64,000 nt of DNA from an uncultured Planctomycetia bacterium (GTDB taxonomy: Bacteria; Omnitrophota; Gorgyraeia; Gorgyraeales; Gorgyraeaceae). The number at the start of each line of letters is the position of its first letter. The stretch's first letter is position 1. The notes under the pieces are model-generated. The model saw only the letters and a program-made list of their open reading frames with translations. It ran no database searches and was not told the DNA's origin. Below, piece by piece: positions 4,997-62,586 of the stretch. The DNA lies in the NCBI GenBank assembly GCA_964415355.1, contig CAYPYS010000001.1:1361-65360 (forward strand). Reading direction: 5' to 3'. Both the position numbers and the translations under genes were made by a program.

Positions 4997-5010
4997 AATC
5001 CATCCATCCT

Positions 5011-5048
5011 TAACTTTACATTTCAACAACGTTAAAATGTAAAGTTAG
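5011..5048. repeat. 39-bp repeat, copy 3 (orientation A: ...CATTTCAACAACGTTAAAG...)
   Basis: It lies between queC (stop inside the repeat) and queE. Confidence 0.9.
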
Positions 5049-12291: not shown

Positions 12292-12782
12292 TCGAATATC
12301 TTTTTCAAGATCCTTTCAAATCTCTCCACGATAACTTTTGTCGCCTTTTCAACATCCCTCTCTTTTACCTCGATCCAATGCACGTACAGGAACCCATTTT
12401 CCTTGTCAACGTCTACGGTAAGCGTGCCAGGAGTCAGAGTGATAGAATTGGCTAGAAAAGTAAGCGCAGTGTCTGACTTAAGACCCGTCTTGACCTTAAC
12501 TATGCCGGGATGAATAGGCAGCTTTGGATGAAGCACTCTGCATGCCACGTCTATGTTGGCTTTAATGCATTCCCACGCGAAAATAGGCACATAATAGAAA
12601 AACCACATATACCTTCCTGCGTGCGTAAGAAGATGCGCGCGCCTTATAAAGAAATCACCTGTCAGGAAAACAACAAATGCTGACACAAAAACGCCTATGA
12701 CCATATGCTGCCAGTCAGGCACCCAGTTTAGCAATGCCCACGCCAGAAAACCAAGTATGAATAAGATGATCCTGTTTTTCAT
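12288..12782 (-). CDS. Mrp antiporter subunit E-like (MnhE/MbhA-like)
   Basis: MnhE-like; the core region matches the family. Confidence 0.65.
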   Translation of the reverse strand: MKNRIILFILGFLAWALLNWVPDWQHMVIGVFVSAFVVFLTGDFFIRRAHLLTHAGRYMWFFYYVPIFAWECIKANIDVACRVLHPKLPIHPGIVKVKTGLKSDTALTFLANSITLTPGTLTVDVDKENGFLYVHWIEVKERDVEKATKVIVERFERILKKIFE

Positions 12783-14281
12783 TGCCTCAATGCCCCAAAA
12801 ACCACAGTTACATAATCTTTGCCTGTCAGCACTGCGTCTTCAGCGACTTTTAGAAAATCACTATAAACCATTGGCAATAGCATAACTCCGCCTACTATGC
12901 AGATAATCGCCAGCACCACCATTGAAAACTTCATGAAAAACGGCACTTCCTTTACCTTGCTCAGCTTTTCTTTTAATTCTCCGAGAAAACCATATCTCTG
13001 GACTTTCATGAAGGAAGCTAGCGTCAATATGCTCGCCAGTACGGCCCATGCCGCATAACCAAAATGATTGGCCTGAACGCACGCGACAATGATAATAAGC
13101 TTGCTCCAGAATCCATTAAAAGGCGGAATGCCCGCGATAGACATAGACGCGATCATGCTCGTACCTGCCGTGACAGGCATGCGCTCTTTAAGCCCGCCCA
13201 TCTTTTGCAGGTCCCTTGTCCCCGTGGAATATTCGACTGCTCCTGAATTTAAAAACAAAAGAGACTTAAACACTGAATGATTAAATAAATGAAACAAACC
13301 TCCTAAAATCCCGAGCGGCGTGCCCAGGCTAATGCCAAGCACGACATATCCTATCTGGCTCACAGAATGATACGCAAGAAGCCTCTTAAAGTCCCACTGC
13401 CCCAGCGCAAGACACACGCCAATGATCATAGACAGCGCGCCAAGCATCATAAACACACTCAACACCTCGCCGGTCACCCCTATGACGCTGAAAAATATCC
13501 TAATGAGCGCGTATACGCCTAGGGATTTAATAAGAATGCCTGACAGCATCGCGGATATAGGGGCTGGCGCAGAAGGGTGCGCATCAGGAAGCCATGCATG
13601 AAAAGGAACCAGGGCTGCCTTCAGTCCAAAACCCATTAAAAAGAAAACACTGGCCAGGAGCACAATAGAGGAGCTCCCTTTATCGATAAGTTCCATTGAC
13701 ATATCAGCCATATTCAACGTAGAGGTATAACTATACATAAATACAATGCCCAATAATATAAAGGAAGAAGCAACCGTGCCCATAACCGCATACTTAAATG
13801 ACGCCTCGAGCTCTTCCTGCTCAGTTCCAAATGCGACAAGCGCGTAACTCGCGATAGCAGCGATCTCAAGAAAAACATACATGTTAAACATGTCGCCGCT
13901 TATCACCACGCCGTTCATGCCAGCGACCACCAATAAGAAAAGACAATAAAAAACCCACTTTTCAGTGAATTTCTCCATATAGTTAATGGAGTATACGCTG
14001 ATTAAAAACGCGATCAGGTTCACAGTGACCAGCATAAGCACTGTGAGCCCATCCATGACCATTGATATCCCGATAGGCGGCAGCCAGCCACCGACTTTAT
14101 ATACAATCACGCCGCTCTCTTTAAATAAAAATATAGAATATATCGATATAACAGCGAGCGCAAAAGTCGCCACGCCAGACAATATATCCGAAAGCCCTTT
14201 TATCTTCTTCCCAATAAGGGAATTCAGAAACGCGGCGCCGAGCGGTATTATAATGAATAATGGCAATAAATGCTGGGTCAT
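12779..14281 (-). CDS. proton-translocating antiporter-like subunit (MrpD/NuoN/MbhH-like)
   Basis: 500-aa protein with ~14 TM segments. FHAWLPDAHPSAPAPISAML is the conserved complex-I antiporter motif. Confidence 0.8.
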   Translation of the reverse strand: MTQHLLPLFIIIPLGAAFLNSLIGKKIKGLSDILSGVATFALAVISIYSIFLFKESGVIVYKVGGWLPPIGISMVMDGLTVLMLVTVNLIAFLISVYSINYMEKFTEKWVFYCLFLLVVAGMNGVVISGDMFNMYVFLEIAAIASYALVAFGTEQEELEASFKYAVMGTVASSFILLGIVFMYSYTSTLNMADMSMELIDKGSSSIVLLASVFFLMGFGLKAALVPFHAWLPDAHPSAPAPISAMLSGILIKSLGVYALIRIFFSVIGVTGEVLSVFMMLGALSMIIGVCLALGQWDFKRLLAYHSVSQIGYVVLGISLGTPLGILGGLFHLFNHSVFKSLLFLNSGAVEYSTGTRDLQKMGGLKERMPVTAGTSMIASMSIAGIPPFNGFWSKLIIIVACVQANHFGYAAWAVLASILTLASFMKVQRYGFLGELKEKLSKVKEVPFFMKFSMVVLAIICIVGGVMLLPMVYSDFLKVAEDAVLTGKDYVTVVFGALRQ

Positions 14282-14285
14282 ACGA

Positions 14286-14624
14286 TTAACCTTTTAGCTT
14301 TCGTATCTTCGTAATGTCGAACGTGCCGTATTTCTCATACACCCTCATCGCAATCGCCGCTATAAGAGCAGTAACTGCAAGCCCTATGACTATAGCGGTC
14401 AGGACCAATGCCTGCGGAAGAGGGTCTACCATGTCAATTACTGTCTGGTCAGGAGAATGGATCGGCGCGCGGCCATTCATCTTGTAGCCCACAAGAATAA
14501 AAAACAGGTTCACAGCGTATTCCACTATGGCTATGCCTATAATGATCTTTATAAGATTCCTCTTTCTGAGGATACAATAAAGACCTACGCAAAAAAGTAT
14601 TAGACAAAGAAAATAAACGCTCAT
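14286..14624 (-). CDS. Mrp subunit C / NuoK-like membrane subunit
   Basis: 112-aa protein with 3 TM segments, NuoK/MnhC-like. Confidence 0.65.
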   Translation of the reverse strand: MSVYFLCLILFCVGLYCILRKRNLIKIIIGIAIVEYAVNLFFILVGYKMNGRAPIHSPDQTVIDMVDPLPQALVLTAIVIGLAVTALIAAIAMRVYEKYGTFDITKIRKLKG

Positions 14625-15106
14625 TTCTCTTCAGACCCTCTATCGATTCTCAAAAGCACAAGAGTAACCACTATAATAAACAGTCCCGAGCCTACTTTAA
14701 AGGCGATCGCAATATTGGATAAAGGTATCAGGCCAGAGCTAAAAAGCCTGAAAAGTTCTCCCTTGGCTGCAAAATTCAAAAAGAAATATCCGCCGGTTGC
14801 CAGCCCAAGGATACCAATGGTAATAAACATTATCGCGCCCAAGCTCTCGAAAAATGAAGCTACCTTCTGGTCCACTTTTTTAAAAGCTGCTTCTTTTCCG
14901 AACGCCAGCATGATGTGTATAAAAGAGAGCGCTATGATCACGCCACCTGCGAATCCGCCGCCAGGGCTTATGTGGCCGTGCGCGACGATGTACACGCCGA
15001 AAAGCAGTATCAGTCCCACTGTCAACCGCGTGATCGTCTTTACTATTAGTGTCATTCCCTTTTCTTGCTCTCTCATAAAACTGCCCCTAACTTTACTTTT
15101 CAACAA
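14621..15106 (-). CDS. Mrp subunit B-like (MnhB domain)
   Basis: MnhB-like (HGHISPGGGFAGGVIIA). Confidence 0.65.
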   Translation of the reverse strand: MLKSKVRGSFMREQEKGMTLIVKTITRLTVGLILLFGVYIVAHGHISPGGGFAGGVIIALSFIHIMLAFGKEAAFKKVDQKVASFFESLGAIMFITIGILGLATGGYFFLNFAAKGELFRLFSSGLIPLSNIAIAFKVGSGLFIIVVTLVLLRIDRGSEEK

Positions 15107-15125
15107 TGTTAAAATGTAAAGTTAC
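15087..15125. repeat. 39-bp repeat, copy 10 (A-like variant)
   Basis: CTAACTTTACTTTTCAACAATGTTAAAATGTAAAGTTAC lies between Mrp genes inside the operon. Confidence 0.85.
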
Positions 15126-15640
15126 TTCTTTCTGCCTACCCGCCGCATTACGGCGAGAACTCCGATCACGGCCGTAAAGAGGATCGTGGCCTCTCCCAAA
15201 GTATCATATGCCCGGTAATCCAGGACAACCGAGCTCACCAGGTTGGTCGCGCCTGTCTCTCTCATGCCGTGCGTTAAATAATTATGCGCTACTTTCATTA
15301 TTGGCTTGCCAAACTCCGGCAGGCCCTTTAAGCAATAATATCCAAAGGCCAAAAACGCGCCTATAAATATAAAAGCTATGATCGTATTAAAGAACCAGCG
15401 TCCGCTCGTAGAAAAAGGTAAATCTCTTTTGATGGTCGCCCTTATCAATATAATCACGCACAATATCTCGACCACGAGCTGAGCCATAGCCAGGTCCGGC
15501 GCCTTCAATATCAGAAACGCGAGTGACAGCCCAAGCCCTACCACGCCAACCGCAATAACAGAGGACAAAAGATCCTTGGCGTGCACAGCGATCAACGCGC
15601 CGACTATCATGAATATTAAAAGTATGTTTAACTCAAGCAT
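15122..15640 (-). CDS. MrpA C-terminal / MnhB-related membrane subunit (MbhD/E-like)
   Basis: The polytopic protein ends in ...GATNLVSSVVLDYRAYDTLGE, which is MnhB-domain-like. Confidence 0.55.
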   Translation of the reverse strand: MLELNILLIFMIVGALIAVHAKDLLSSVIAVGVVGLGLSLAFLILKAPDLAMAQLVVEILCVIILIRATIKRDLPFSTSGRWFFNTIIAFIFIGAFLAFGYYCLKGLPEFGKPIMKVAHNYLTHGMRETGATNLVSSVVLDYRAYDTLGEATILFTAVIGVLAVMRRVGRKK

Positions 15641-15651
15641 GTCTCATAACC

Positions 15652-17439
15652 TCACATCACGATAACGAAAAAGAACACCAGCATCCCCAGGATACACCAG
15701 GCCAGATACGTGGGCAATACGCCATTATGCAAATACCTGAATATACCTATAAAGAAAAACACGAGTCTTTTGCCCTGGTCGTAAATATCAAAAACCTTTC
15801 TCTCTGCCTTGGCATAAATGCTTCTAAGGAACGGCAGCTCCTTTATTGTACCATAAAATTCTGTGCCGGAAAGTCTCATATCTTTTCCGGTCTCTTCCCC
15901 GCCTATATAGCAATCCGTCTCTCTAACGCCTTTAAAATTACCCAATAAATAAATCAAAATACCAGCGCCAAGGCCTACAACTAAATAAAATGTGGCGCGC
16001 AGGGACGGCCAGCTTCCGACAAAACCAAACCTCTCGGTCAGCGCAGGCAATACAAGATATTTCAAAGGAATTACATAGGCGAACACGCCAAAGACGATAC
16101 AAAGAACCGCCAGGATCACCGGAGGAAGCCACATGGTCCAATGGACTTCATCGCGCTGGCCTGTCTGTCCATCTTTAGATTTACCTAAAAATATCGCGTG
16201 TATGAATTTTATGAATGACGCGAGGGTCAGGCCGCTCCCGAACATCGCTGCTATTATGCAGAATATCCACAGCGCCCCTCCGGACTTCCCGCTCTCTACC
16301 AAACCTTGATAAACCATCCATTTTGAAAAAAATCCGTTAAAAGGCGGCACGCCGGATATCGCGAACGAGGAAACCAGCGTCGTAAAAAATGTCACTGGCA
16401 TAATTTTTGCGAGACCACCTAGAGAATCGAGATCCGATGTCTTTGCCTTATGTTCTACATTGCCGCCTGATAAAAATAAGCAACTTTTGTATATCGCGTG
16501 ATTGATCATATGAAAAAGCCCGCCTGCTATGCCTATAGGATTCCCGGTGCCAATGCCGAGCACCATGTAACCTACCTGGCTCACCGCGTGATAACCCAGG
16601 AGTTTTTTGAAATCGTGCTGCACGAGCGCCATCATAACAGCCGCTATTATAGTGACAGCACCCACCACCATCAGAATAGCGTGGCAAAGCGCGTTCAATA
16701 TAAATATGTGGAGAACCAATCTTGCCAATAAGTAAATGCCTAGAAGTTTATCAAGGCTGGCTGGTAAAAATGCTGTCACCGGCATAGGCGCGTCTTTTGC
16801 TGTATCTGGTATCCAGGAATGAAAAGGCATGGCCCCTGCCTTTGCAAGCGCTCCTATTGTTATCAATAAAAATGCCCAGAAGGCCTGAGGATTATCTACG
16901 GCGATCTTTATATTACTCAGGCTCATATTGCTTGTAATAAGCCACATGAGCGCAAAGCCCAGGACCATGAGGCTGTCTGAGCCGCCTATTATAATAAAGG
17001 TCTTTTTGCTCGTGGCTGCTGCCTTTGGCCCAGATATGTTGATCAACATATAAAGCGTAAAACCCAAAAGGCCCCACGCCACAATAAGCAGCGCCATGTT
17101 ATTGGAAATCGCGGCTAGTATCGAAAGGCCTATGGTCCATATTGTATACGCGTAATACGAGCGCAGCTCTCTGTACGCTGACATAAAACGTAGCGAATAC
17201 ACTGTCACAAGCGCGCCAAAGAATCCCACGCCAATCACGATAAACCTGGAAAGGCCGTCTAAGTATAAAAATTCCCCCTGATACTGCGCCAGAAGAAATA
17301 TCCTAACGCAAGCCGCTGACAGATATATAGAGGTAACAACGCTAAAGCCCTCTATCACCCTCTTCAGCTTTTTAGGGATCAAGAAAATCACGCATCCCGC
17401 GAGTATCGATATTATTATCGGCTGCAATAAAACCTTCAT
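15652..17439 (-). CDS. NuoL/MrpA/HyfB-like antiporter subunit
   Basis: 595 aa. FHSWIPDTAKDAPMPVTAFL is the NuoL-type motif. Confidence 0.8.
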   Translation of the reverse strand: MKVLLQPIIISILAGCVIFLIPKKLKRVIEGFSVVTSIYLSAACVRIFLLAQYQGEFLYLDGLSRFIVIGVGFFGALVTVYSLRFMSAYRELRSYYAYTIWTIGLSILAAISNNMALLIVAWGLLGFTLYMLINISGPKAAATSKKTFIIIGGSDSLMVLGFALMWLITSNMSLSNIKIAVDNPQAFWAFLLITIGALAKAGAMPFHSWIPDTAKDAPMPVTAFLPASLDKLLGIYLLARLVLHIFILNALCHAILMVVGAVTIIAAVMMALVQHDFKKLLGYHAVSQVGYMVLGIGTGNPIGIAGGLFHMINHAIYKSCLFLSGGNVEHKAKTSDLDSLGGLAKIMPVTFFTTLVSSFAISGVPPFNGFFSKWMVYQGLVESGKSGGALWIFCIIAAMFGSGLTLASFIKFIHAIFLGKSKDGQTGQRDEVHWTMWLPPVILAVLCIVFGVFAYVIPLKYLVLPALTERFGFVGSWPSLRATFYLVVGLGAGILIYLLGNFKGVRETDCYIGGEETGKDMRLSGTEFYGTIKELPFLRSIYAKAERKVFDIYDQGKRLVFFFIGIFRYLHNGVLPTYLAWCILGMLVFFFVIVM

Positions 17440-18632
17440 CTATTCTTCCTTAACTTACGTGAGCGTCTCAAACGCTCTGTCTTTTCCTGGGAAAGCCGGA
17501 GAAGATCCTGGCCATCCATGATCTTCTTGCCTGTCTTGTGATCTACAACAGCGGTTCGCTCTGTGCAGCAATAACACGGGTCCACTGCCGCGAGTATTAT
17601 AGTTGCGTCGGAAATCGTATGTCCCACCACTGCCTTTTTGTTCGAGGCTACATTCATATAGCTCGGTGCCCTGACTTTATGACGAGCAGGGCTGTTACCG
17701 CCGTCTGACATAATGTAGTGAAATACCTCGCCGCGCGGCGCCTCGTGCCTGCCAATGCCCTCTCCTACAGGCATGTCCTTTATATTAAGGTCTATTTCGC
17801 CTTTCGGCATCTTATCTAGACATTGCAAAATAATATTGATCGACTCATAAAGCTCCAATATTCTCACGACTGCCTTTGCGAATACGCCGCCGCCTTCCTG
17901 CGTGATCACCTTCCAGTCTACCTTATCATACGCCGCATACGGATCATCTCTTCTCACATCAATGCTCACGCCTGACGCCCTCGCAGTAGGCCCGACTACA
18001 GAATAATCATGTACATCCTGCCTTGTCAATGCGCCAATGCCCTCTGTCCTCGCTCTTATCACAGGGTCATCGATAACCGCTCCTTTAAACATGTCGACTT
18101 TCGGGATCAGACCCTTAAGCATCTTTCTGATCCACGGAAAATCTGCTTCATCCATATCCCTTCTTACGCCGCCTGGCTTGAACATTGCGTAGTGCTGCCT
18201 GTTGCCTGTGACCCTTTCAAAGATATCCAGCACCGGCTCTCTATATTTCCACGCCCACATCCACACAGTATTGTAACCCAAAAAGTGCCCTGCGAGTCCA
18301 ACCCACAAAAGATGACTATGCACCCTCTCAAGTTCACCTATAATAGTGCGGATATAAAGCGCTCTCTCAGGGACCTGGACCCCCAAAAGATCATCGATCG
18401 CGTTAGTATACGCAAAAGGATGCGAGGTAGAACAGATCCCGCAGATCCTCTCCACTAAAAACGTGACCTGGTCATAACTCTTGGACTCCGCTATCTTCTC
18501 GATAGTCCTATGGTTATATCCGATCTCTATATCCATATCCACTACTGTCTCACCGTCCACGTGCAATTTAAAAAATTCCGGCTCTTCCTGCAGCGGGTGA
18601 TATGGGCCTATTGGTATGATCTTATGCGACAT
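17436..18632 (-). CDS. [NiFe] hydrogenase large (catalytic) subunit, group 4 (NuoD-like; MbhL/EchE/HycE-like)
   Basis: The N-terminal Ni-Fe ligand motif RICGICSTSH and the C-terminal DPCYCCTERTAVVDH are both present. A ~34-aa C-terminal extension follows, consistent with HycI processing. Confidence 0.9.
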   Translation of the reverse strand: MSHKIIPIGPYHPLQEEPEFFKLHVDGETVVDMDIEIGYNHRTIEKIAESKSYDQVTFLVERICGICSTSHPFAYTNAIDDLLGVQVPERALYIRTIIGELERVHSHLLWVGLAGHFLGYNTVWMWAWKYREPVLDIFERVTGNRQHYAMFKPGGVRRDMDEADFPWIRKMLKGLIPKVDMFKGAVIDDPVIRARTEGIGALTRQDVHDYSVVGPTARASGVSIDVRRDDPYAAYDKVDWKVITQEGGGVFAKAVVRILELYESINIILQCLDKMPKGEIDLNIKDMPVGEGIGRHEAPRGEVFHYIMSDGGNSPARHKVRAPSYMNVASNKKAVVGHTISDATIILAAVDPCYCCTERTAVVDHKTGKKIMDGQDLLRLSQEKTERLRRSRKLRKNR

Positions 18633-26964: not shown

Positions 26965-27002
26965 TTAACTTTACATTTTAACGTTGTTGAAATGTAAAGT
27001 TA
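26965..27002. repeat. 39-bp repeat, copy 15 (B)
   Basis: It lies between hypF-C and hypC, next to GC hairpin copy 3. Confidence 0.9.
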
Positions 27003-28107
27003 AAACTGCCTGGCCAAGCGCGATGCCGCCGTCGTGCGTTGGAACCCTGTCGTGCAAATACAGCTCGAACCCTGCTGTTTCCAAAATAGGTTTAATGTGG
27101 CTTACCAGGAACTTATTCTGAAACACCCCTCCGCTCAAACAAACTTTATTTATTTTATATTTTTTTCTAAGCAATTCACAAACATCCTTTATCATATGAC
27201 AAACTGCATTATGAAATTTCAATGAGATTTCTGTCTTGCTTTTTTTGTTCTGCAGATCTTTAACAATACCTTTGATAAGAAGTTCCCAGTCTATAATAAT
27301 CTTATCTTTGTCTATATACTTAAATTTATAGAACTCATTGCCGAGGCCTCCTTTTATCGACCTCTCTAATTCTATCGCTGCCTGGCCTTCATACCCTGCA
27401 ACGCTGCAAACTCCTATAATCGAGGAAACTGCATCAAAAAGCCTGCCAATACTTGAAGTCAAAGGCGAATTTATTCTTTTTTCTATGGCTTGGATCAAAA
27501 GATTGACTCTTCTTTTGTCCTGCTTCTTCAAAAAATCTATCTTCAAAGTCTTGAAGCCTGGACCAAATACACTATAAAGATAACTCAAGCCCATTCGCCA
27601 AGGCTCTCTGATCGATGCCTCCCCTCCTGGCATAGGCAGATATTTTAAATGAGCTGTCCTCTTGAATCCTTTTATATTACCTATAAAAAACTCTCCTCCC
27701 CACGCCTCTCCGTCAAGACCAAAACCTGTCCCGTCAAAAGATACGCCTATAACGTCTCCCTTGACGTTGTTATCGACTATGCAGCTGGCTATATGGGCCT
27801 CGTGATGCTGGATCTGTTTTATCCCGCATCCTCCGCGTCTCATAATGTCTTTTGCTAACTTAGAGGAAATATATTCAGGATGCAGATCGCATGCGACGAT
27901 ACCTGGTTTAATCTTCAATTTTCTCTGCAAAGATTTTATGTTCTTCTCAAAAACATTCAAATCTTCCAGACTACTTAGATCTCCTCCGGAACGCGACAGA
28001 TACATAGCCCTGCCCCTGGCAAAGCAAAAGCTACTTTTTGATTGAGCGCCTAATGCGAGAATATTAGAGCTTATTTTACGCAATAAATTAATTTTGATAT
28101 AATTCAT
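26971..28107 (-). CDS. hypF: HypF-like carbamoyltransferase, Kae1-like C-terminal domain only (no acylphosphatase, Zn-finger or YrdC domains)
   Basis: ILALGAQSKSSFCFARG...DLHPEY...QIQHHEAHIAS...GVSFDGTGFGLDGEAWGGEF matches the HypF C-terminal domain. The start is moved to MNYIKI past the repeat-derived MLKCKLRCSLQ. Confidence 0.7.
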   Translation of the reverse strand: MNYIKINLLRKISSNILALGAQSKSSFCFARGRAMYLSRSGGDLSSLEDLNVFEKNIKSLQRKLKIKPGIVACDLHPEYISSKLAKDIMRRGGCGIKQIQHHEAHIASCIVDNNVKGDVIGVSFDGTGFGLDGEAWGGEFFIGNIKGFKRTAHLKYLPMPGGEASIREPWRMGLSYLYSVFGPGFKTLKIDFLKKQDKRRVNLLIQAIEKRINSPLTSSIGRLFDAVSSIIGVCSVAGYEGQAAIELERSIKGGLGNEFYKFKYIDKDKIIIDWELLIKGIVKDLQNKKSKTEISLKFHNAVCHMIKDVCELLRKKYKINKVCLSGGVFQNKFLVSHIKPILETAGFELYLHDRVPTHDGGIALGQAVLTLHFNNVKM

Positions 28108-28120
28108 TTGCAGCGAGCAC

Positions 28121-28159
28121 CTAAGTTTACACTTTAACATTGTTGAAATGTAAAGTTAG
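28121..28159. repeat. 39-bp repeat, copy 16 (B)
   Basis: It lies between the MetE-like gene and hypF-C. Confidence 0.9.
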
Positions 28160-29190
28160 GATAAATTATCTTTTGCCAGCCTGGAGACAATAGAGAGTTT
28201 TTTGATTATAACCTCTGTAAGATCCTGAGAAAGAGTTCCCATCCCACAACTAGGCGTGATTAAAGAGCGGGATATCAATAAATCCCGCGGAATGCCTTTT
28301 CCTTCCAATTTTCCTATTTCTGACGACAGTTTCTGAAAAAGAGAATCCTCTGAGTCCTTTAAAGCTGCTTCGGAAGTGGGAATCTGGCCCCACGCAAGAT
28401 AACCGCCTCTTTTTAAAAATTTCGTTATCTCTCCCGGATACAGCGAAAGCCCTTCGGCATAAGAATAGGCGTCAAAATTTATAATATCCACGTTCGTCTC
28501 TGCGAGAAGCGACCAGTCTGTATTGCCGCAGCAGTGAATACCGCTCAAGGCCCCTTTCGAATGAACCTTATCTATGAGGGCATTCAGCATCAATACGATA
28601 TCCTTCCTCTCAATGTTTACAAAGCTAGAGCCAAAACTAGTAAGGTACGGCTCGTCTATAAATATAATAATATTTTTAAAAACACTGCTCAACTTGTCTA
28701 TTTGCCAGGAAGTCTTTATCTCCAGAAGCTTGACCAGGGCATCTCTAAGCGTCTCGTTATATATGATAGACCTCCCTTTTTCGTCAACAACGCTAAGGCC
28801 AAAACTAACAGGGCCTGTAACATGGCCTTTTACATAACCGGGATTAAATTCTCTGGCAATATCCATAAACGCATAGAGCCCTTCTGCGATATCCTTTGAA
28901 AGACCAAGTGGGTCGTAATTATTGGACATATAGACTTCATACAGCTTGCCCAGGTCCTCGCTTAGATCTTTAGTGCTGTCAACATATATCCTTCTATTCT
29001 CTGCATCTATAACCAGCGACGGCAAACCATTGGCAAACTGGACATACATGTTCTCTTTAAAACCTCTCTTTGGAAGTTGAGGCCAAAATGGTATGTCGAA
29101 TTTAGCGCACGTAATCCTAGCGCTTTCCGAGGCATCGGTATACGGTAAGCTTCCTATTCCAGTTGTGAGAAATTTTCCTTTTATCTTCAT
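28156..29190 (-). CDS. cobalamin-independent methionine synthase (MetE) catalytic-domain-like / UroD-superfamily protein
   Basis: TTGIGSLP is the MetE C-domain start motif. IFIDEPYL and HCCGN motifs follow. The protein is 344 aa. Confidence 0.5.
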   Translation of the reverse strand: MKIKGKFLTTGIGSLPYTDASESARITCAKFDIPFWPQLPKRGFKENMYVQFANGLPSLVIDAENRRIYVDSTKDLSEDLGKLYEVYMSNNYDPLGLSKDIAEGLYAFMDIAREFNPGYVKGHVTGPVSFGLSVVDEKGRSIIYNETLRDALVKLLEIKTSWQIDKLSSVFKNIIIFIDEPYLTSFGSSFVNIERKDIVLMLNALIDKVHSKGALSGIHCCGNTDWSLLAETNVDIINFDAYSYAEGLSLYPGEITKFLKRGGYLAWGQIPTSEAALKDSEDSLFQKLSSEIGKLEGKGIPRDLLISRSLITPSCGMGTLSQDLTEVIIKKLSIVSRLAKDNLS

Positions 29191-29228
29191 GACTATCTAT
29201 TTTAGCACCGCCTCCTCAAGCGGGTCAA

Positions 29229-29268
29229 CTTAACTTTACACTTTAACGTTGTTGAAATGTAAAGTTAG
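29229..29268. repeat. 39-bp repeat, copy 17 (B), first of an inverted tandem pair
   Basis: CTTAACTTTACACTTTAACGTTGTTGAAATGTAAAGTTAG. Confidence 0.9.

Positions 29269-29302: not shown

Positions 29303-29306
<4 letters not shown>
29269..29306. repeat. 39-bp repeat, copy 18 (A-like), second of the inverted tandem pair
   Basis: CTAAGTTTACTTTTAACAATGTTAAAGTGTAAAGTTAT. Confidence 0.85.
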
Positions 29307-31357
<2,051 letters not shown>

Positions 31358-31367
31358 ATTGGCAGGC

Positions 31368-31406
31368 CTAACTTTACACTTCAACAATGTTAAAGTGTAA
31401 AGTTAG
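31368..31406. repeat. 39-bp repeat, copy 19 (A), first of an inverted tandem pair
   Basis: It lies between the BioU-candidate gene and bioF. Confidence 0.9.
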
Positions 31407-31444
31407 CTAAGTTTACTTTTAACAATGTTGAAATGTAAAGTTAG
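31407..31444. repeat. 39-bp repeat, copy 20 (B), second of the inverted tandem pair
   Basis: CTAAGTTTACTTTTAACAATGTTGAAATGTAAAGTTAG. Confidence 0.9.
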
Positions 31445-32397
31445 CGCAGGATCATTGGCATGAAGTCAGTGGAACCGAACATGCCGTATATTTTATGTTG
31501 CTTAAGCCATAGCGCGCGCTTCATATACCCGAGGGCAGGACCCACGACATTGGCTGCCATGGATGTCTCGTCGCCAAGTATAAACCTATGGCTAGATTTT
31601 TTACCTTCGAATGTCCTGCCTGTCAGGGTCATCGTCGTAGAAACAGGTTTTTTTGCACACCTCGTATCCATCACGCCGCCCACCGAAACCTTCTTCAGTG
31701 AATCCACGACCCCTGTATTCTTTAGCAATATATCGTCGGCGTGCTCCATTTCGCGAAGCACAAGCTTCCCCTTAGTTCTATCGAGCAGCTTATCGACTTC
31801 TGTGTCTGACATGCGCTTTGCCTTTTCAACCGTGTAACCCGGAAGATGCGCTATATCCTCCCTGATAGTGGCCCTGTACGCGTCCCAATTCGAAATACCA
31901 ACGCCCCACCATATATTCACATCATCGACCTCTGCAAATGACTGGGCTGCGAGAACCGCAGCGGCAGACAAAAGACCAGGCGTCGCGCCACAGCCGGCGA
32001 TATATACGCTATTGTTCTTTTTTAGATCATTGTCCAGCTTCATCATTAATTTAATTGCCGCGGTGCGTTTCAAAGCACACGTATATACGCCGCCATACCC
32101 AGCCTTAATAAACCGCTTCACCACGCCGGGAATGAACTCATTCGGGAGATTCGGAAGCGCCACAAAGACTCCATCGAACTTGTTCTTTAATTTTATAATC
32201 TCTCCTATGGAATCATTTGAGGGTTTGAGATTTTTTAAATCTTTTACGGTAATACCTTTTTGTGAATACAGGAACCCGCCGGAATCACAGATCGCAACCA
32301 CCTTTGCCTCTTTCTTTTTCTCTACGACATCCAGACAGGCCTTGCCTAACCCACCAGCCCCCAAAACCGCAATTTTCATCTCCTTAATCTTCTCCAT
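31441..32397 (-). CDS. NAD(P)-binding Rossmann-fold protein embedded in the bio operon; candidate BioU-type replacement for the missing bioA (inference)
   Basis: A GxGxxG fold is present (KIAVLGAGGLGKA). The gene lies between bioB and bioF on the same strand. The start is moved to MEKIKEM. Confidence 0.5.
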   Translation of the reverse strand: MEKIKEMKIAVLGAGGLGKACLDVVEKKKEAKVVAICDSGGFLYSQKGITVKDLKNLKPSNDSIGEIIKLKNKFDGVFVALPNLPNEFIPGVVKRFIKAGYGGVYTCALKRTAAIKLMMKLDNDLKKNNSVYIAGCGATPGLLSAAAVLAAQSFAEVDDVNIWWGVGISNWDAYRATIREDIAHLPGYTVEKAKRMSDTEVDKLLDRTKGKLVLREMEHADDILLKNTGVVDSLKKVSVGGVMDTRCAKKPVSTTMTLTGRTFEGKKSSHRFILGDETSMAANVVGPALGYMKRALWLKQHKIYGMFGSTDFMPMILR

Positions 32398-32413: not shown

Positions 32414-32452
32414 CTAACTTTACATTTCAACAATGTTAAAGTGTAAAGTTAG
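32414..32452. repeat. 39-bp repeat, copy 21 (A)
   Basis: It lies between bioB and the BioU-candidate gene. Confidence 0.9.
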
Positions 32453-33426
32453 ATATCAAATCCCAGATCTCTCGCCATCTGTAAATCTTCTTCCACAGAC
32501 CTTCCTCTCGTAGTGAGATACCCTCCTATGATCATACCATTTGCTCCTGCCATGAATGCCATCGCCTGCAAGTCTCGCAGCGCGTGTTCTCTGCCGCCCG
32601 CCACCTTTATAGTCGCCCTGGGCAGCACCAGTCTAAAAACAGCTATTGTCTTCAATATATCAAAAGGCGAAAGCGGCTCAATGCCTTCGAGCGGTGTGCC
32701 CTTGCGCGGATTGAGGATATTCAAGGGAACGCATGTAATACCGAGATTTTTTAAAGCAAAAACAAGAGATATCCTATCATCTTCGCTTTCTCCTAAACCG
32801 ATTACCCCGCCGCAACAAGGATTCAGCCCAACGCCCTTCAGTGTCTCCACCATGCTCAACCTATTCTTATAAAGGTGCGTTGTGCAAATATTTTTATAAA
32901 AATTTTCTGACGTCTCCAGGTTATGATTATATCTATCAATGCCTAATTCTTTTAGCTCTTTCACCATGTCACGCCCAAGACTTCCGAGCGAGCAATCTAC
33001 CTTTATACCAACCTCTCCGCTGATTCTCTTTATGGCCTTTTTAATACTGTCAAATTCTTTTCTCGTCGGCCCCTCTCCGCTGATCACAATGCAAAAATTA
33101 GTCGCGCCAGCCTTCTTGGCCGCCTTAGCCTCTCTGACCATCTCATCTGTGCTAACAAGAGGATAAACCTCGCAACCCGTCTTATATACTGAAGACTGCG
33201 CGCAGAATTTACAATCTTCTGAACAAAGTCCGCTTTTTGCATTTATCAAAGAACAGAAATCCATCTTATTGCCGCAAAATCTGCGCCTCACAGCGTCAGC
33301 CGCATGCATTAAAAAATGCAATTCCTCCCGTCCTGTATCTAGAAGATCCCTTGCCTCTTCAATGCTCAGCTCTTCCCCGGACAATACACTATTTAAAAGA
33401 GAGTTTATTCTACTCATGCACCTCAT
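32449..33426 (-). CDS. bioB: biotin synthase (radical SAM)
   Basis: The CSEDCKFCAQ radical SAM motif and the surrounding BioB core are present. Confidence 0.9.
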   Translation of the reverse strand: MRCMSRINSLLNSVLSGEELSIEEARDLLDTGREELHFLMHAADAVRRRFCGNKMDFCSLINAKSGLCSEDCKFCAQSSVYKTGCEVYPLVSTDEMVREAKAAKKAGATNFCIVISGEGPTRKEFDSIKKAIKRISGEVGIKVDCSLGSLGRDMVKELKELGIDRYNHNLETSENFYKNICTTHLYKNRLSMVETLKGVGLNPCCGGVIGLGESEDDRISLVFALKNLGITCVPLNILNPRKGTPLEGIEPLSPFDILKTIAVFRLVLPRATIKVAGGREHALRDLQAMAFMAGANGMIIGGYLTTRGRSVEEDLQMARDLGFDI

Positions 33427-33435
33427 CGCCTCTGC

Positions 33436-33474
33436 CTAACTTTACATTTTAACGTTGTTGAAATGTAAAGTTAG
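33436..33474. repeat. 39-bp repeat, copy 22 (B)
   Basis: It lies immediately upstream of bioB. Confidence 0.9.
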
Positions 33475-33504
33475 GATCATATAATATTTTATCTCTTATT
33501 GGGT

Positions 33505-33540
33505 AATTGTCAACTTAAGTATAAGATCAAGTTAACAATT
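33505..33540. promoter_or_regulatory. inverted repeat AATTGTCAACTTAAG-N8-CAAGTTAACAATT overlapping the LacI-family gene stop, upstream of the bio operon; operator-like
   Basis: The arms are near-perfect reverse complements. The AATTGT...ACAATT ends resemble LacI/GalR-family operator ends. Confidence 0.35.
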
Positions 33541-34530
33541 CGATTGGCAGGAACTACGCTCTATGAGCTCTGCTGGTAATGCTATTTTTTTGTGACCCTT
33601 GATCCTTTTGGTCATAATCTGCTGCAATGTCTCTGTCGCGATCATAGCCATTTTATGCAAGGGCTGCCTCATGGTAGTGACAGGGACAGGGGAAAAGCTT
33701 AAAGCAAAAGGATTGTCATCGAATCCTATCACTGATATATCGCCAGGTACGCTAATGCCGTTTTCAAGGCAAACCTGTATCGCGCCGACTGCCATCTCGT
33801 CGCTCGCCGCAAATATAGCGGTCGGGGGCTGTTTTAATTTTATAAGCTCTTTGGTAGCTTTTATCGCGGAGTCCCTTCCGAAATCTCCATGCTTTATATA
33901 GTTATCCTTCTTTGTTATCTTATTTTTCTCGAGAGCCCTGATATAGCCATTGAGCCTGTCAATAGCTACCTGAGATTTCAACTCTCCTGTAATAGTCGCT
34001 ATCCTGGAATGTTTTAGTTTAGTCAAGTAATTAACCGCCTCGATGGAAGCATTATAATTATCTATAGCTACACAAGAAACAGGCAGGTCCTTTGTGTAGT
34101 AATTCATAATTACGCACGGCAGGTCCTTCCCAAGCACATCGTCCACCTGATCTTCGTTACCGATAATATCGGAAAAAATCACACCCTCCACAGCCGACGC
34201 GTTCAAAAAACTGTCTCCGTTTGTAATATGCAATAAAAGATCCAGCTTCAGCCTCTCGACTGCAACGCCGACGCCCTGAAGGATCTGCAGGGCATAGAAT
34301 GAATGGAATATATCAGAATATCTCGGAATTATAAGGCCTATAGCGTTATTCTTTTTTGCTGCAAGTCTCTGCGCGCTTACATTTGGCCTGAATTTCAATT
34401 TTTTAATCGCTGCCTCGACTGCCAGTTTATTGGCCTTTTTAACAGACGATAATTTATTTACAACCCGGGAGACCGTTGCTATCGAAACATGCGCTTCCTT
34501 TGCGACGTCTTTTATATTGATATGTCTCAT
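33532..34530 (-). CDS. LacI-family transcriptional regulator
   Basis: N-terminal HTH IKDVAKEAHVSIATVSRVVN with a periplasmic-binding-fold C-domain. Confidence 0.85.
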   Translation of the reverse strand: MRHINIKDVAKEAHVSIATVSRVVNKLSSVKKANKLAVEAAIKKLKFRPNVSAQRLAAKKNNAIGLIIPRYSDIFHSFYALQILQGVGVAVERLKLDLLLHITNGDSFLNASAVEGVIFSDIIGNEDQVDDVLGKDLPCVIMNYYTKDLPVSCVAIDNYNASIEAVNYLTKLKHSRIATITGELKSQVAIDRLNGYIRALEKNKITKKDNYIKHGDFGRDSAIKATKELIKLKQPPTAIFAASDEMAVGAIQVCLENGISVPGDISVIGFDDNPFALSFSPVPVTTMRQPLHKMAMIATETLQQIMTKRIKGHKKIALPAELIERSSCQSNC

Positions 34531-36026
34531 TCTAATCTCTCCCCTTTCTGACCCAATATGCTGGCAGTGACAAATATCAGCAGATTCTTTCTCTCCACGC
34601 TATCCGAGTCTTTTCTGAATAAAGCTCCCAATAATGGCATGTCGCCTAAAACAGGCGTCTTGGTGATCGTATTGGTTCTCGTCTCTTTTATCAGCCCGCC
34701 AAGGACTATTGTGTCCCCGTTCTTCACCACTATATTAGTGGTTAAATTTCTTGTGGTAAATTTAGGAAGTTTGACTTCTCCGCTGAACTCAAACGCATTT
34801 GCAGTCGCCTCGCTTACTTCGGGTCTCAGCGTCATCGTTATTATTTCTTTATCCGAACCCACGCTTGGCGTCACCTTAAGCAAGATCCCCACATCCCTTG
34901 TCTCAAATCCTTGAGGCACATTGATAAACCTCGTTTCCCTCACGCCATCCACGACATCTAAAAAATCACCGTCGTTATTCAGGTCGTTCTTTGTTAATGT
35001 CGGTTCGTATCTGGTCGGATAGACAAACTCATCCACTATCTCTATCGTAGCGGTCTGATTGTTTAAAGTCGTGATCTTTGGCGCGGACAAGGTTTTCAGG
35101 TTTGTCTTCTTTTCAAGCGCGTGCAGGACCGCTGAAAACTGCGGCTTTGTAAGCATGCCTTGATAAGTAAGGTTTAATCCTTCATTAGGCGCTCCTGTAA
35201 ACGCTGAAAAACTCGAACCAGTCCCACCGGCTATCTCAGTCACAGACGTGCCTGCATCTTTATAGATAGGAAAAGAAGTATCCATGGTTAAATTTAATCC
35301 AAACTCGCTTAGATCAGTGACATTTATCTCGACAAACCTTGTTTCTATCAAGACCTGGGTAGCGTCTATATCTAAATTATACAGGATCTCCTCTACGATT
35401 TTTAAATTTGAGGGCGTGTTTGTAATAATCAAAGCGCCTGTCCGATCGTCCAGATTGATCTTTGAATCGCTGGGCCACGAAACAGCATTATCCAGGACAT
35501 CCTTGATGGTATTGACCTTTGAAATACCGGCAGCACCTCCAAATCCACCGCTCAAACCAGCCGTAGGCCCTGAAAACTCAGTAAACATGGCAAGGCCCTG
35601 GTCTAAATAATAAATCCTCGTCTCAGACGCCTCTTCTTGCATCGCATCATAGGTATCGACCCACACTGCATTGTTTTCTATCCTGTATGCCAGGCCTTGA
35701 TGTCTGAATATGTATTTCAAGAGGCTTTCCAAAGACATGTCCTTGACCCTTATGGTGACCTTCTTCTCTTCCGGATCGACGTCTGATCCGAGAATTATAT
35801 TTACCCCTGTTGCCTCAGATAAAAAATCAAGCACATAATCAAGGCTTACGTCTCTAAAATCTACTGTTATGGGGATATCAAGCTTCCCTCTGATCTCAGG
35901 CACCTCTACGATAGAATTCTTCGACTGCGCATCGGTATCCTTTATAAACTTTACCTCATAGGCAGACGCTTCCCGCGCACAACAAATAAAAATAAAGATT
36001 AAAACTACACAACCAATCCTTCTCAT
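34527..36026 (-). CDS. secretin (PilQ/GspD family), short form
   Basis: The C-terminal secretin motif PVLGDMPLLGALFRKDSDSVERKNLLIFVTASIL is present. N-terminal secretin-N/STN-like domains precede it. Confidence 0.8.
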   Translation of the reverse strand: MRRIGCVVLIFIFICCAREASAYEVKFIKDTDAQSKNSIVEVPEIRGKLDIPITVDFRDVSLDYVLDFLSEATGVNIILGSDVDPEEKKVTIRVKDMSLESLLKYIFRHQGLAYRIENNAVWVDTYDAMQEEASETRIYYLDQGLAMFTEFSGPTAGLSGGFGGAAGISKVNTIKDVLDNAVSWPSDSKINLDDRTGALIITNTPSNLKIVEEILYNLDIDATQVLIETRFVEINVTDLSEFGLNLTMDTSFPIYKDAGTSVTEIAGGTGSSFSAFTGAPNEGLNLTYQGMLTKPQFSAVLHALEKKTNLKTLSAPKITTLNNQTATIEIVDEFVYPTRYEPTLTKNDLNNDGDFLDVVDGVRETRFINVPQGFETRDVGILLKVTPSVGSDKEIITMTLRPEVSEATANAFEFSGEVKLPKFTTRNLTTNIVVKNGDTIVLGGLIKETRTNTITKTPVLGDMPLLGALFRKDSDSVERKNLLIFVTASILGQKGERLE

Positions 36027-59418: not shown

Positions 59419-59457
59419 CTAACTTTACATTTCAACAACGTTAAAATGTAAAGTTAG
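59419..59457. repeat. 39-bp repeat, copy 32 (A)
   Basis: It lies between the RR2 and RR3 genes. Confidence 0.9.
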
Positions 59458-62576: not shown

Positions 62577-62586
62577 ATATGCCTCC

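What the first reader, a model, noticed from the sequence alone, without database searches (positions are those of the whole stretch)
31441..32397. Biotin operon without bioA; embedded Rossmann-fold gene as candidate BioU-type DAPA-forming enzyme
The operon order is bioB - X - bioF - bioD on one strand. No aminotransferase (bioA) is present. X is a ~320-aa protein with an N-terminal NAD(P)-binding GxGxxG fold. In cyanobacteria the suicide enzyme BioU replaces BioA and is a Rossmann-fold NAD(P)-binding protein encoded in bio clusters. Position and fold make X a candidate analogue.
Basis: inference. Interest (0 to 1): 0.6.

Follow-up and report, generated by a model that had tools for sequence, protein, structure and literature searches.

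The report
BioU biotin enzyme in an Omnitrophota genome
The unnamed gene inside this biotin operon is a clear relative of BioU, the self-sacrificing cyanobacterial enzyme that replaces the usual aminotransferase BioA, so this uncultivated Omnitrophota-type bacterium can probably make the biotin rings although standard annotation would call its pathway incomplete.

Summary
On the minus strand lie bioB (32449-33426), X (31441-32397, 318 aa), bioF (30170-31354) and bioD (29527-30198). No BioA-like gene occurs anywhere in the 64-kb window.

X is a true homologue of Synechocystis BioU (Slr0355), not merely an analogue.
- It matches Slr0355 over its full length (E 7e-97, 52% identity).
- Its AlphaFold model superposes on the BioU crystal structures at TM 0.89-0.91. 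The next fold, meso-DAP dehydrogenase, reaches only 0.57.
- The sacrificial lysine (K124 in Slr0355, K110 in X) and H233 (H219 in X) are conserved. I mapped both exactly by comparing the K124A and H233A mutant chains in the PDB with the wild-type chains.

The closest relatives (80-93% identity) are Candidatus Omnitrophota MAG proteins named 'saccharopine dehydrogenase-like oxidoreductase'. X scores 392 bits on NCBIfam's BioU model, below its 600-bit cut-off.

In 80 genome loci from several phyla, bioU sits within 10 kb of bioF in 54 and of bioD in 50, and never near a bioA.

BioU has been known since 2020, so this is a new member of a known kind. Its practical value is in correcting 'partial biotin pathway' calls for Omnitrophota. 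Whether bioA exists elsewhere in the source genome could not be tested.

The parts
32449..33426 (-). bioB, biotin synthase (radical SAM + BATS domains), first gene of the cluster
   Evidence: TIGR00433 at 404 bits against a cut-off of 225; Pfam Radical_SAM + BATS. 35% identical to E. coli BioB, E 9e-61.
31441..32397 (-). X = bioU homologue, 318 aa: NAD(P)-dependent, single-turnover enzyme forming DAN-carbamate from AON (function inferred)
   Evidence: phmmer against PDB Slr0355 gives E 7e-97 over residues 6-318. NCBIfam NF047886 BioU at 391.8 bits, E 2e-117, below the 600-bit cut-off. AF2 model pLDDT 90; Foldseek TM 0.89-0.91 to 6ir4/6k36/6itd/6k37/6k38.
32344..32361 (-). codons for G13-A-G-G-L-G18, the Rossmann dinucleotide-binding motif of X
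   Evidence: G13, G15, G16 and G18 are invariant in alignments A1 and A2. The model has strand 7-12 followed by helix 16-26.
32068..32070 (-). AAA codon of Lys110, equivalent to the sacrificial Lys124 of Synechocystis BioU
   Evidence: The PDB K124A chains (6itd, 6k37) read ALARTS where the wild type reads ALKRTS and X reads ALKRTA. K110 is invariant in 14- and 25-sequence alignments. The codon was read directly from the sequence.
31741..31743 (-). CAC codon of His219, equivalent to His233 of Synechocystis BioU
   Evidence: The PDB H233A chain (6k38) reads MEAADD where the wild type and X read MEHADD. H219 is invariant in A1 and A2.
30170..31354 (-). bioF, 8-amino-7-oxononanoate synthase (makes the substrate of BioU)
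   Evidence: TIGR00858 at 468.8 bits against a cut-off of 426.45. 38% identical to E. coli BioF, E 7e-78.
29527..30198 (-). bioD, dethiobiotin synthetase (uses the product of BioU); overlaps bioF by 29 nt
   Evidence: TIGR00347 at 169.8 bits against a cut-off of 83.3. E. coli BioD E 2e-24.
33486..33513 (-). sigma-70-like promoter TTGACA-16-TAAAAT upstream of bioB
   Evidence: Best promoter match in the region, 11 of 12 positions. The motif GGTTGACAAT...GTAAAATAT is conserved at the same place in nine related Omnitrophota loci. Function is inferred.
33436..33474 (-). 39-nt palindromic repeat in the bioB leader, between the promoter and the start codon
32414..32452 (-). 39-nt palindromic repeat between bioB and bioU; its TAA is the bioB stop codon
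31368..31445 (-). one full and one partial palindromic repeat between bioU and bioF; the bioU stop TAA (31441-31443) lies in the partial copy

Best explanation
X is an orthologue of BioU. It completes a BioA-independent late biotin pathway encoded by bioB-bioU-bioF-bioD in a Candidatus Omnitrophota-type bacterium.

Inferred mechanism, taken from the published Synechocystis enzyme:
1. BioF condenses a pimeloyl thioester with L-alanine to give 8-amino-7-oxononanoate (AON).
2. The epsilon-amino group of Lys110 of X attacks the C7 keto group of AON. NAD(P)H bound in the N-terminal Rossmann domain reduces the imine to a covalent enzyme-diaminononanoate (DAN) conjugate.
3. The conjugate is carboxylated to a carbamic acid.
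4. NAD(P)+ re-oxidises the lysine C-N bond and DAN-carbamic acid is released. The enzyme is left without its lysine amino group, so each protein molecule works once.
5. BioD closes the ureido ring with ATP, and BioB inserts sulfur.

Shown here: homology, fold, conservation of the two mutationally defined residues, gene context and its conservation. Inferred: the chemistry, the single-turnover behaviour, and the absence of BioA from the rest of the genome.
For: (1) X matches Slr0355 over its full length at E 7e-97. The next PDB families (glutamate dehydrogenase, meso-DAP dehydrogenase) score E 0.03-0.09.

(2) X is 52% identical to Slr0355 in a multiple alignment.

(3) The AF2 model has pLDDT 90.1 and pTM 0.87. 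Its five best Foldseek PDB hits are all BioU structures (E 1e-42, TM 0.89-0.91). Sixth is DAP dehydrogenase at TM 0.57 and 16% identity.

(4) Catalytic residues were mapped without relying on numbering. The K124A and H233A mutant chains differ from the wild-type chain exactly opposite K110 and H219 of X. Both residues are invariant across Omnitrophota, Desantisbacteria, Poribacteria, Nitrospirota, Firestonebacteria and Synechocystis sequences. The role of K124 is described in PMC12704756 and PMC12915131.

(5) The test discriminates. The two most distant full-length family representatives (37% and 32% identical) lack the Lys (P0128) or the His (P0130), whereas X keeps both.

(6) The family has no close paralogues. 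An exhaustive phmmer search of 1.84 billion representatives at 50% identity returns only 67 hits, about eight of them full length.

(7) In the window X lies between bioB and bioF, and bioD follows bioF. The same bioB-bioU-bioF-bioD order, with overlapping or abutting genes, occurs in a relative with 81% identity.

(8) In 80 genome loci (up to 10 kb fetched each side), bioF is found with bioU in 54, bioD in 50 and bioB in 30, and a BioA-like gene in none.

(9) There is no BioA-like gene in the 64-kb window.
Against: X scores 391.8 bits on NCBIfam's BioU equivalog model, below the curated cut-off of 600. NCBI's pipeline therefore does not call such proteins BioU; relatives are named 'saccharopine dehydrogenase-like oxidoreductase'.

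X and its closest relatives lack a segment of about 10 residues after residue 57 that Slr0355 and most other family members have.

No BioU from outside cyanobacteria has been characterised in any paper I could find in the held library.

Only 64 kb of the genome was seen. A preprint on 176 complete Omnitrophota genomes reports bioA hits in 66 of them, so a bioA elsewhere cannot be excluded.

Long palindromic hairpins sit between the cistrons, so co-transcription of the four genes is assumed, not shown.
Confidence: 0.85

Rival explanations
1. X is a functional BioU, but the genome also carries a canonical bioA elsewhere. BioU would then be redundant or condition-specific rather than a replacement.
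For: Only 64 kb of the genome is visible. A preprint reports KofamScan bioA (K00833) hits in 66 of 176 complete Omnitrophota genomes.
Against: None of the 80 bioU loci has a BioA-like gene within 10 kb, although bioF and bioD are there in more than 50. In the published cyanobacterial cases, bioU genomes lack bioA. In the preprint's counts bioA is found in fewer genomes than bioF, bioD or bioB, which fits a subset that uses another route.
Confidence: 0.12
2. X is a BioU-like protein that works catalytically. It would carry out reductive amination of AON with free ammonia or another donor, in the manner of the meso-DAP, amino-acid and amine dehydrogenases that are its nearest structural neighbours, rather than sacrificing its own lysine.
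For: The nearest other folds are NAD(P)H-dependent reductive aminases that use ammonia: DAPDH, D-amino-acid dehydrogenase and native amine dehydrogenases. No non-cyanobacterial BioU has been tested.
Against: The sacrificial Lys and His233 are strictly conserved in X and in all close relatives. At 52% identity, with the same residues, a change of mechanism is unlikely. There is no positive evidence for it.
Confidence: 0.05
3. X is an unrelated amino-acid, saccharopine or DAP dehydrogenase that merely happens to lie in the bio cluster, as its public name 'saccharopine dehydrogenase-like oxidoreductase' would suggest.
For: Pfam gives only a weak N-terminal ELFV_dehydrog match (E 1.6e-8, residues 2-70), which reflects the Rossmann fold alone. 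Public names of close relatives point the same way.
Against: Matches to those families are limited to the dinucleotide-binding region or are marginal (E 0.03-0.09 in PDB, TM at most 0.62), against E 7e-97 and TM 0.9 for BioU. The bio context is conserved across phyla.
Confidence: 0.02

Closest known systems
BioU (Slr0355) of Synechocystis sp. PCC 6803; PDB 6ir4, 6k36, 6itd, 6k37, 6k38; NCBIfam NF047886
   Same: The two align end to end at 52% identity and share the same fold (TM about 0.9). X has the same GxGGxG motif, the same sacrificial Lys (K124/K110) within the motif ALKRT, and the same His (H233/H219) within MEHADD. Both genomic settings have bioF, bioD and bioB but no bioA nearby.
   Different: The host is a non-photosynthetic Omnitrophota-type bacterium, not a cyanobacterium. 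Here the gene is embedded in a compact bioB-bioU-bioF-bioD cluster. X lacks about 10 residues after position 57. Its score falls below NCBIfam's 600-bit equivalog cut-off. Its activity has not been tested.
BioA (adenosylmethionine-8-amino-7-oxononanoate aminotransferase, PLP-dependent, class III)
   Same: It carries out the same pathway step, converting AON to the 7,8-diamino compound between BioF and BioD.
   Different: There is no sequence or fold relationship. BioA is a catalytic PLP enzyme that uses SAM (or lysine in Bacillus) as amino donor. BioU is an NAD(P)-dependent single-turnover protein that donates its own lysine nitrogen and also delivers the carbamate. No BioA-like sequence is in the window.
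meso-diaminopimelate dehydrogenase, D-amino-acid dehydrogenase and native amine dehydrogenases
   Same: These are the nearest non-BioU structures. They share a two-domain NAD(P) Rossmann fold plus a dimerisation/substrate domain, and reductive-amination chemistry.
   Different: They are only 11-16% identical, with TM 0.55-0.60 and PDB sequence E-values of 0.07-0.09. They use free ammonia and turn over catalytically.

Membership tests
BioU (Slr0355-type DAN-carbamate-forming suicide enzyme) | Full-length sequence homology to the characterised Synechocystis enzyme | tested here: met
   phmmer E 6.8e-97, query residues 6-318 against chain residues 20-343. 52% identity in the MAFFT alignment.
BioU (Slr0355-type DAN-carbamate-forming suicide enzyme) | Sacrificial lysine equivalent to Lys124 | tested here: met
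   K110 of X aligns with the residue that is Ala in the K124A chains 6itd and 6k37. It is invariant in A1 and A2. A distant family member (P0128) has Asp at this position, so the test discriminates.
BioU (Slr0355-type DAN-carbamate-forming suicide enzyme) | Histidine equivalent to His233, which the crystallographers mutated | tested here: met
   H219 of X aligns with the residue that is Ala in the H233A chain 6k38. It is invariant in A1 and A2. A distant member (P0130) has Tyr here.
BioU (Slr0355-type DAN-carbamate-forming suicide enzyme) | N-terminal NAD(P)-binding Rossmann domain with a glycine-rich motif | tested here: met
   GAGGLG at residues 13-18 is invariant. The model shows a beta-alpha-beta start.
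BioU (Slr0355-type DAN-carbamate-forming suicide enzyme) | Three-dimensional fold of BioU | tested here: met
   AF2 model pLDDT 90. The top five Foldseek PDB hits are BioU structures, TM 0.89-0.91 and E about 1e-42. The next fold reaches TM 0.57.
BioU (Slr0355-type DAN-carbamate-forming suicide enzyme) | Score above the curated NCBIfam equivalog cut-off (NF047886, 600 bits) | tested here: not met
   391.8 bits, E 2.1e-117, covering 322 of 323 profile positions. This is an annotation threshold, not a biochemical property. I infer, but cannot check, that the model was calibrated on cyanobacterial sequences. I treat the result as a caution rather than an exclusion.
BioU (Slr0355-type DAN-carbamate-forming suicide enzyme) | Occurs with bioF, bioD and bioB in a genome lacking bioA | tested here: inconclusive
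   Met for the 64-kb window and for 80 related loci with up to 10 kb fetched each side. The rest of the source genome was not available.
BioU (Slr0355-type DAN-carbamate-forming suicide enzyme) | Single-turnover conversion of AON to DAN-carbamic acid with NAD(P)H/NAD(P)+ and CO2; complementation of a bioA mutant | not testable with these tools
   This needs biochemistry or genetics.
BioA (class III PLP aminotransferase) | Aminotran_3 fold with a PLP-binding lysine | tested here: not met
   X has no Aminotran match. E. coli BioA finds nothing in the window.
meso-DAP / Glu-Leu-Phe-Val dehydrogenases | Full-length match to the family's catalytic domain | tested here: not met
   Only residues 2-70 match ELFV_dehydrog. 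PDB DAPDH scores E 0.07-0.09, with TM about 0.57 and 16% identity.

The most novel reading that the evidence does not exclude
BioU, not BioA, may be the standard route to the diamino intermediate in a large clade of Omnitrophota and in several other mostly uncultivated lineages. Contig labels among the loci include Desantisbacteria, Schekmanbacteria, Abditibacteriota, Nitrospinae and DPANN-type archaea.

Because curated thresholds keep these proteins under the name 'saccharopine dehydrogenase-like oxidoreductase', the reported 'uniformly partial' biotin pathway of Omnitrophota, read as host dependence, would be at least partly an annotation artefact. A protein-consuming suicide step would then be widespread among small-genome anaerobes rather than a cyanobacterial peculiarity.
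Probability: 0.5. Interest if true: 0.4.

Novelty: new member of a known kind. Interest (0 to 1): 0.3.

Why it matters
BioU is usually presented as a cyanobacterial curiosity. Here a well-conserved orthologue sits in the middle of a compact bio operon of an Omnitrophota-type bacterium. Related genes lie next to bioF and bioD in many other phyla.

Public annotation does not recognise these proteins as BioU. [quoted passage not shown] Recognising bioU would change that metabolic inference for genomes like this one.

It also supplies non-cyanobacterial sequences for testing how general the suicide mechanism is. It does not reveal a new kind of enzyme or pathway.

Tried and rejected
(1) The original BioU paper (doi 10.1038/s41589-019-0461-9) is not in the held library. 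I therefore could not check what it says about distribution outside cyanobacteria. Mechanism and residue numbers come from secondary sources (PMC12704756, PMC12915131, PMC7133116) and from PDB entry titles.

(2) A first literature search using word-start matching returned noise. Whole-word searches found no paper linking BioU with Omnitrophota.

(3) bioA elsewhere in the source genome could not be tested.

(4) I looked for a LacI-type operator between the conserved upstream LacI-family gene and bioB or bioU. Across nine loci only a conserved promoter (GGTTGACAAT...GTAAAATAT) is shared, with no conserved palindrome. I therefore dropped the idea that this LacI protein is a biotin regulator, for lack of evidence.

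(5) I considered whether the downstream 344-aa gene and the HypF-C gene belong to the biotin cluster. I rejected this. In relatives they are followed by hypC-hypD-hypE-hypA, and in the window they have their own promoter-like site at 29199-29228.

(6) An Rfam scan of the whole window found only three tRNAs. It found no riboswitch or known RNA family at the intergenic palindromes.

(7) The mechanical ORF extensions beginning 'MLKCKVR...' on X, bioF and the hypF-like gene are artefacts of the palindromic repeat.

Full report
**What is in the sequence**

Between 29.5 and 33.5 kb, four genes lie head to tail on the minus strand:
- bioB, 32449-33426
- X, 31441-32397
- bioF, 30170-31354
- bioD, 29527-30198, overlapping the end of bioF by 29 nt

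Three of them pass NCBIfam's curated equivalog thresholds: bioB at 404 bits (cut-off 225), bioF at 469 bits (cut-off 426) and bioD at 170 bits (cut-off 83).

X is 318 aa, counted from the ATG at 32397. An AGGAGG sequence lies 4 nt upstream of that ATG. The longer ORF that a mechanical scan reports (TTG at 32433, 'MLKCKVR...') starts inside an intergenic repeat and is an artefact. X begins with a GAGGLG dinucleotide-binding motif at residues 13-18.

A strong sigma-70-like promoter (TTGACA-16-TAAAAT, 33486-33513) lies upstream of bioB. It is conserved in related genomes. A second promoter-like site (29199-29228) precedes the next, unrelated gene.

E. coli BioA finds nothing in the 64-kb window (best E 0.5), while E. 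coli BioB, BioF and BioD find their counterparts at 1e-24 to 1e-78. None of the nine ORFs of BioA-like size has an aminotransferase domain.

**What X is**

A phmmer search of all PDB sequences puts four chains of Slr0355, the Synechocystis BioU, far above everything else. They score E 7e-97 and align with residues 6-318 of X. The next hits are glutamate and meso-DAP dehydrogenases at E 0.03-0.09. In a multiple alignment X is 52% identical to Slr0355.

NCBIfam's BioU model NF047886 matches X end to end at 391.8 bits (E 2e-117). Its curated cut-off is 600 bits, so X would not be named BioU automatically. Pfam sees only a weak Rossmann-region match to ELFV_dehydrog.

An AlphaFold2 model built from 25 family sequences is confident (pLDDT 90.1, pTM 0.87). 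Its five best Foldseek matches in the PDB are the five BioU entries (TM 0.89-0.91, E about 1e-42). The sixth is DAP dehydrogenase at TM 0.57 and 16% identity.

**Catalytic residues**

The PDB holds BioU mutants named K124A (6itd, 6k37) and H233A (6k38). This allowed me to map both residues without trusting any numbering.
- The K124A chain reads ALARTS where the wild type reads ALKRTS. X reads ALKRTA, so K124 corresponds to K110 of X (codon AAA, 32068-32070).
- The H233A chain reads MEAADD where the wild type and X read MEHADD. So H233 corresponds to H219 of X (codon CAC, 31741-31743).

Both residues are invariant in alignments that span Omnitrophota, Desantisbacteria, Poribacteria, Nitrospirota, Firestonebacteria and Synechocystis.

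According to PMC12704756 and PMC12915131, K124 is the residue whose epsilon-amino group is ligated to AON and then given up. That loss is why BioU works only once.

The test discriminates. Of the most distant full-length representatives of the family, one has Asp in place of the Lys (P0128, 37% identity). Another has Tyr in place of the His (P0130, 32%). X keeps both.

**Family size and orthology**

An exhaustive phmmer search of 1.84 billion representatives (50% identity clusters) gives only 67 hits. About eight are full length and the rest are fragments. The family is small, tight and without neighbouring paralogous families. A 52% match with both key residues is therefore best read as orthology.

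**Who carries it, and in what context**

The closest proteins (80-93% identity) come from metagenomes and from MAGs labelled Candidatus Omnitrophota or Omnitrophica. Where they have a name, it is 'saccharopine dehydrogenase-like oxidoreductase'. The identical protein occurs on short groundwater-type metagenome contigs with the same gene order.

In a relative with 81% identity (GCA_964566255.1), bioB, bioU, bioF and bioD abut or overlap one another.

A pattern scan of one genome per GTDB species found at least 475 stretches that encode a relative. The best 80 carry a range of labels:
- Omnitrophota, some labelled 'uncultured Planctomycetia'
- Desantisbacteria, Schekmanbacteria and Nitrospinae
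- Armatimonadetes and Abditibacteriota, including the cultured Abditibacterium utsteinense and complete genomes
- a few contigs labelled Woesearchaeota, Nanoarchaeia or Methanosarcinales

Within the DNA fetched for those 80 loci (up to 10 kb each side), a bioF is present in 54, a bioD in 50 and a bioB in 30. A BioA-like sequence (E below 1e-6) is present in none. Gene context therefore ties the whole family to the step between BioF and BioD, and it does so in the absence of BioA.

**How it most likely works**

By homology with the Synechocystis enzyme:
1. BioF makes AON.
2. Lys110 of X forms an imine with the C7 ketone, and NAD(P)H reduces it to a covalent enzyme-DAN conjugate.
3. The conjugate is carboxylated.
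4. NAD(P)+ oxidises the lysine C-N bond and DAN-carbamic acid leaves. This consumes the lysine amino group.
5. BioD closes the ureido ring with ATP, and BioB inserts sulfur.

Homology, fold, residues and context are shown here. The chemistry, the single-turnover behaviour and the cofactor preference are inferred.

No source of the pimeloyl thioester is visible in the window. E. coli BioC finds nothing there.

**Cautions**

- The NCBIfam cut-off is not reached.
- X and its nearest relatives lack about 10 residues after position 57 that Slr0355 and most others have.
- No BioU from outside cyanobacteria appears to have been tested in any paper I could search. I could not read the original 2020 paper, so I do not know how much of the non-cyanobacterial distribution it already reported.
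- A bioA elsewhere in the genome cannot be excluded. A preprint reports bioA hits in 66 of 176 complete Omnitrophota genomes.
- Stable 39-nt hairpins sit between bioB and bioU and between bioU and bioF, so co-transcription is assumed.

**Comparison with what is known, and novelty**

X works like BioU and, on every biochemical criterion testable here, is a member of the BioU family. It is functionally analogous to BioA but unrelated to it. Structurally it is a distant cousin of the meso-DAP and amine dehydrogenases.

BioU, its structures, a KEGG-style 'BioU-mediated' module (used in PMC13532358) and an NCBIfam model all exist already. This is a new member of a known kind, not a new kind.

What is mildly new is the host and its consequence. 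The Omnitrophota survey preprint scored bioF in 79 of 176 genomes, bioA in 66, bioD in 74 and bioB in 98. It called the pathway 'uniformly partial' and a 'notable deficit' consistent with host dependence, without considering bioU. Genomes like this one probably have a complete late pathway.

**Verdict**

My confidence that X is a functional BioU-type enzyme is about 0.85. Interest is modest (0.3). The result is solid and useful for annotation and metabolic inference, but unsurprising to a specialist who knows BioU.

Noticed in passing
window, 26 full copies, e.g. 32414-32452, 31368-31406, 33436-33474, 29230-29268, 28121-28159, 5010-5048, 59419-59457: A 39-nt near-perfect palindrome (gene-strand consensus CTAACTTTACAyTTyAACrwyGTTrAArTGTAAAGTTAG) occurs 26 times as a full element and 46 times as half-sites, against 0 expected. 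It fills a large share of the intergenic gaps, including those inside the bio cluster. The predicted RNA hairpin has a free energy of -5 to -21 kcal/mol, mostly -11 or lower. In 15 of 26 copies the TAA at element positions 2-4 is the stop codon of the upstream gene. The element has no Rfam match. It also creates spurious 'MLKCKVR' N-terminal ORF extensions. It could be a REP- or MITE-like element, or an intercistronic processing or stabilising hairpin; I did not resolve which.
   Followed up: partly
L007:6046-6086, 7081-7121, 9190-9230, 2404-2444 (related species, BioU 92% identical): The related genome has palindromes at the same intergenic positions, but with a changed arm: CTTAAGTTTACA...TGTAAACTTAAG instead of CTAACTTTACA...TGTAAAGTTAG. 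Both arms changed together, so the palindrome is preserved. The exact window motif is absent from all fetched loci other than L002-L004, which carry the identical BioU protein. This points to lineage-specific, concertedly evolving elements.
   Followed up: partly
window 33532-34530 (-) and 34527-36026 (-); loci L007-L024, L047-L086: A LacI-family regulator lies directly upstream of the bio genes, and its start overlaps the end of a secretin gene. The order secretin - LacI - (bioB) - bioU - bioF - bioD is kept in 32 of 80 loci, down to 46-53% LacI identity and 40-47% secretin identity. In the distant genomes LacI and bioU are often 0-40 nt apart. I found no conserved operator, so a regulatory link to biotin is unproven.
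   Followed up: partly
window 28156-29190 (-) and 26971-28107 (-); L005:12774-17575: A conserved 344-aa protein is followed by a gene that encodes only the C-terminal Kae1-like half of HypF. The 344-aa protein has no Pfam hit and no PDB hit, only a weak MetE-like NCBIfam match (E 2e-7). The HypF-like gene lacks the acylphosphatase, Zn-finger and YrdC-like parts. In relatives the pair is followed by hypC-hypD-hypE-hypA. The 344-aa protein may stand in for the missing N-terminal half of HypF.
   Followed up: partly
proteins P0009, P0021, P0030, P0044, P0080, P0081, P0087, P0090 and others; NCBIfam NF047886: Non-cyanobacterial BioU homologues that keep the catalytic Lys and His are publicly named 'saccharopine dehydrogenase-like oxidoreductase'. 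X scores 392 bits against the NCBIfam BioU equivalog cut-off of 600, which looks too strict for proteins like these. The library's description of the model, '(S)-8-amino-7-oxononanoate synthase BioU', also names the wrong reaction.
   Followed up: partly
P0128 and P0130: The two most divergent full-length members of the BioU family have lost the sacrificial Lys (LDQT instead of LKRT) or the His (EYADD instead of EHADD). They may be paralogues with a different, possibly catalytic, function.
   Followed up: no
L037, L042, L044, L045, L055, L078: BioU homologues about 60% identical to X lie next to one or more of bioB, bioF and bioD on contigs labelled as archaeal MAGs (Woesearchaeota, Nanoarchaeia, 'uncultured Methanosarcinales'). 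I did not verify the labels. If they are right, the BioU route also exists in DPANN-type archaea.
   Followed up: no
window 29303-29551 (-): An 82-aa ORF with a predicted N-terminal transmembrane helix overlaps the end of bioD and is followed by two palindromic repeats. It is called as a gene on the same-species contigs L003 and L004. It is absent in the 81%-identity relative L005 and has no Pfam match.
   Followed up: no
window 1-64000: Every ORF of 200 aa or more but one lies on the minus strand (the exception, 62579-63265, overlaps a longer minus-strand ORF), and GC skew is uniformly negative (-0.06 to -0.31). The content includes a complex-I-like or group 4 [NiFe] hydrogenase module (12779-18632), hyp maturation genes, type IV pilus / T2SS genes and several histidine kinases.
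   Followed up: no
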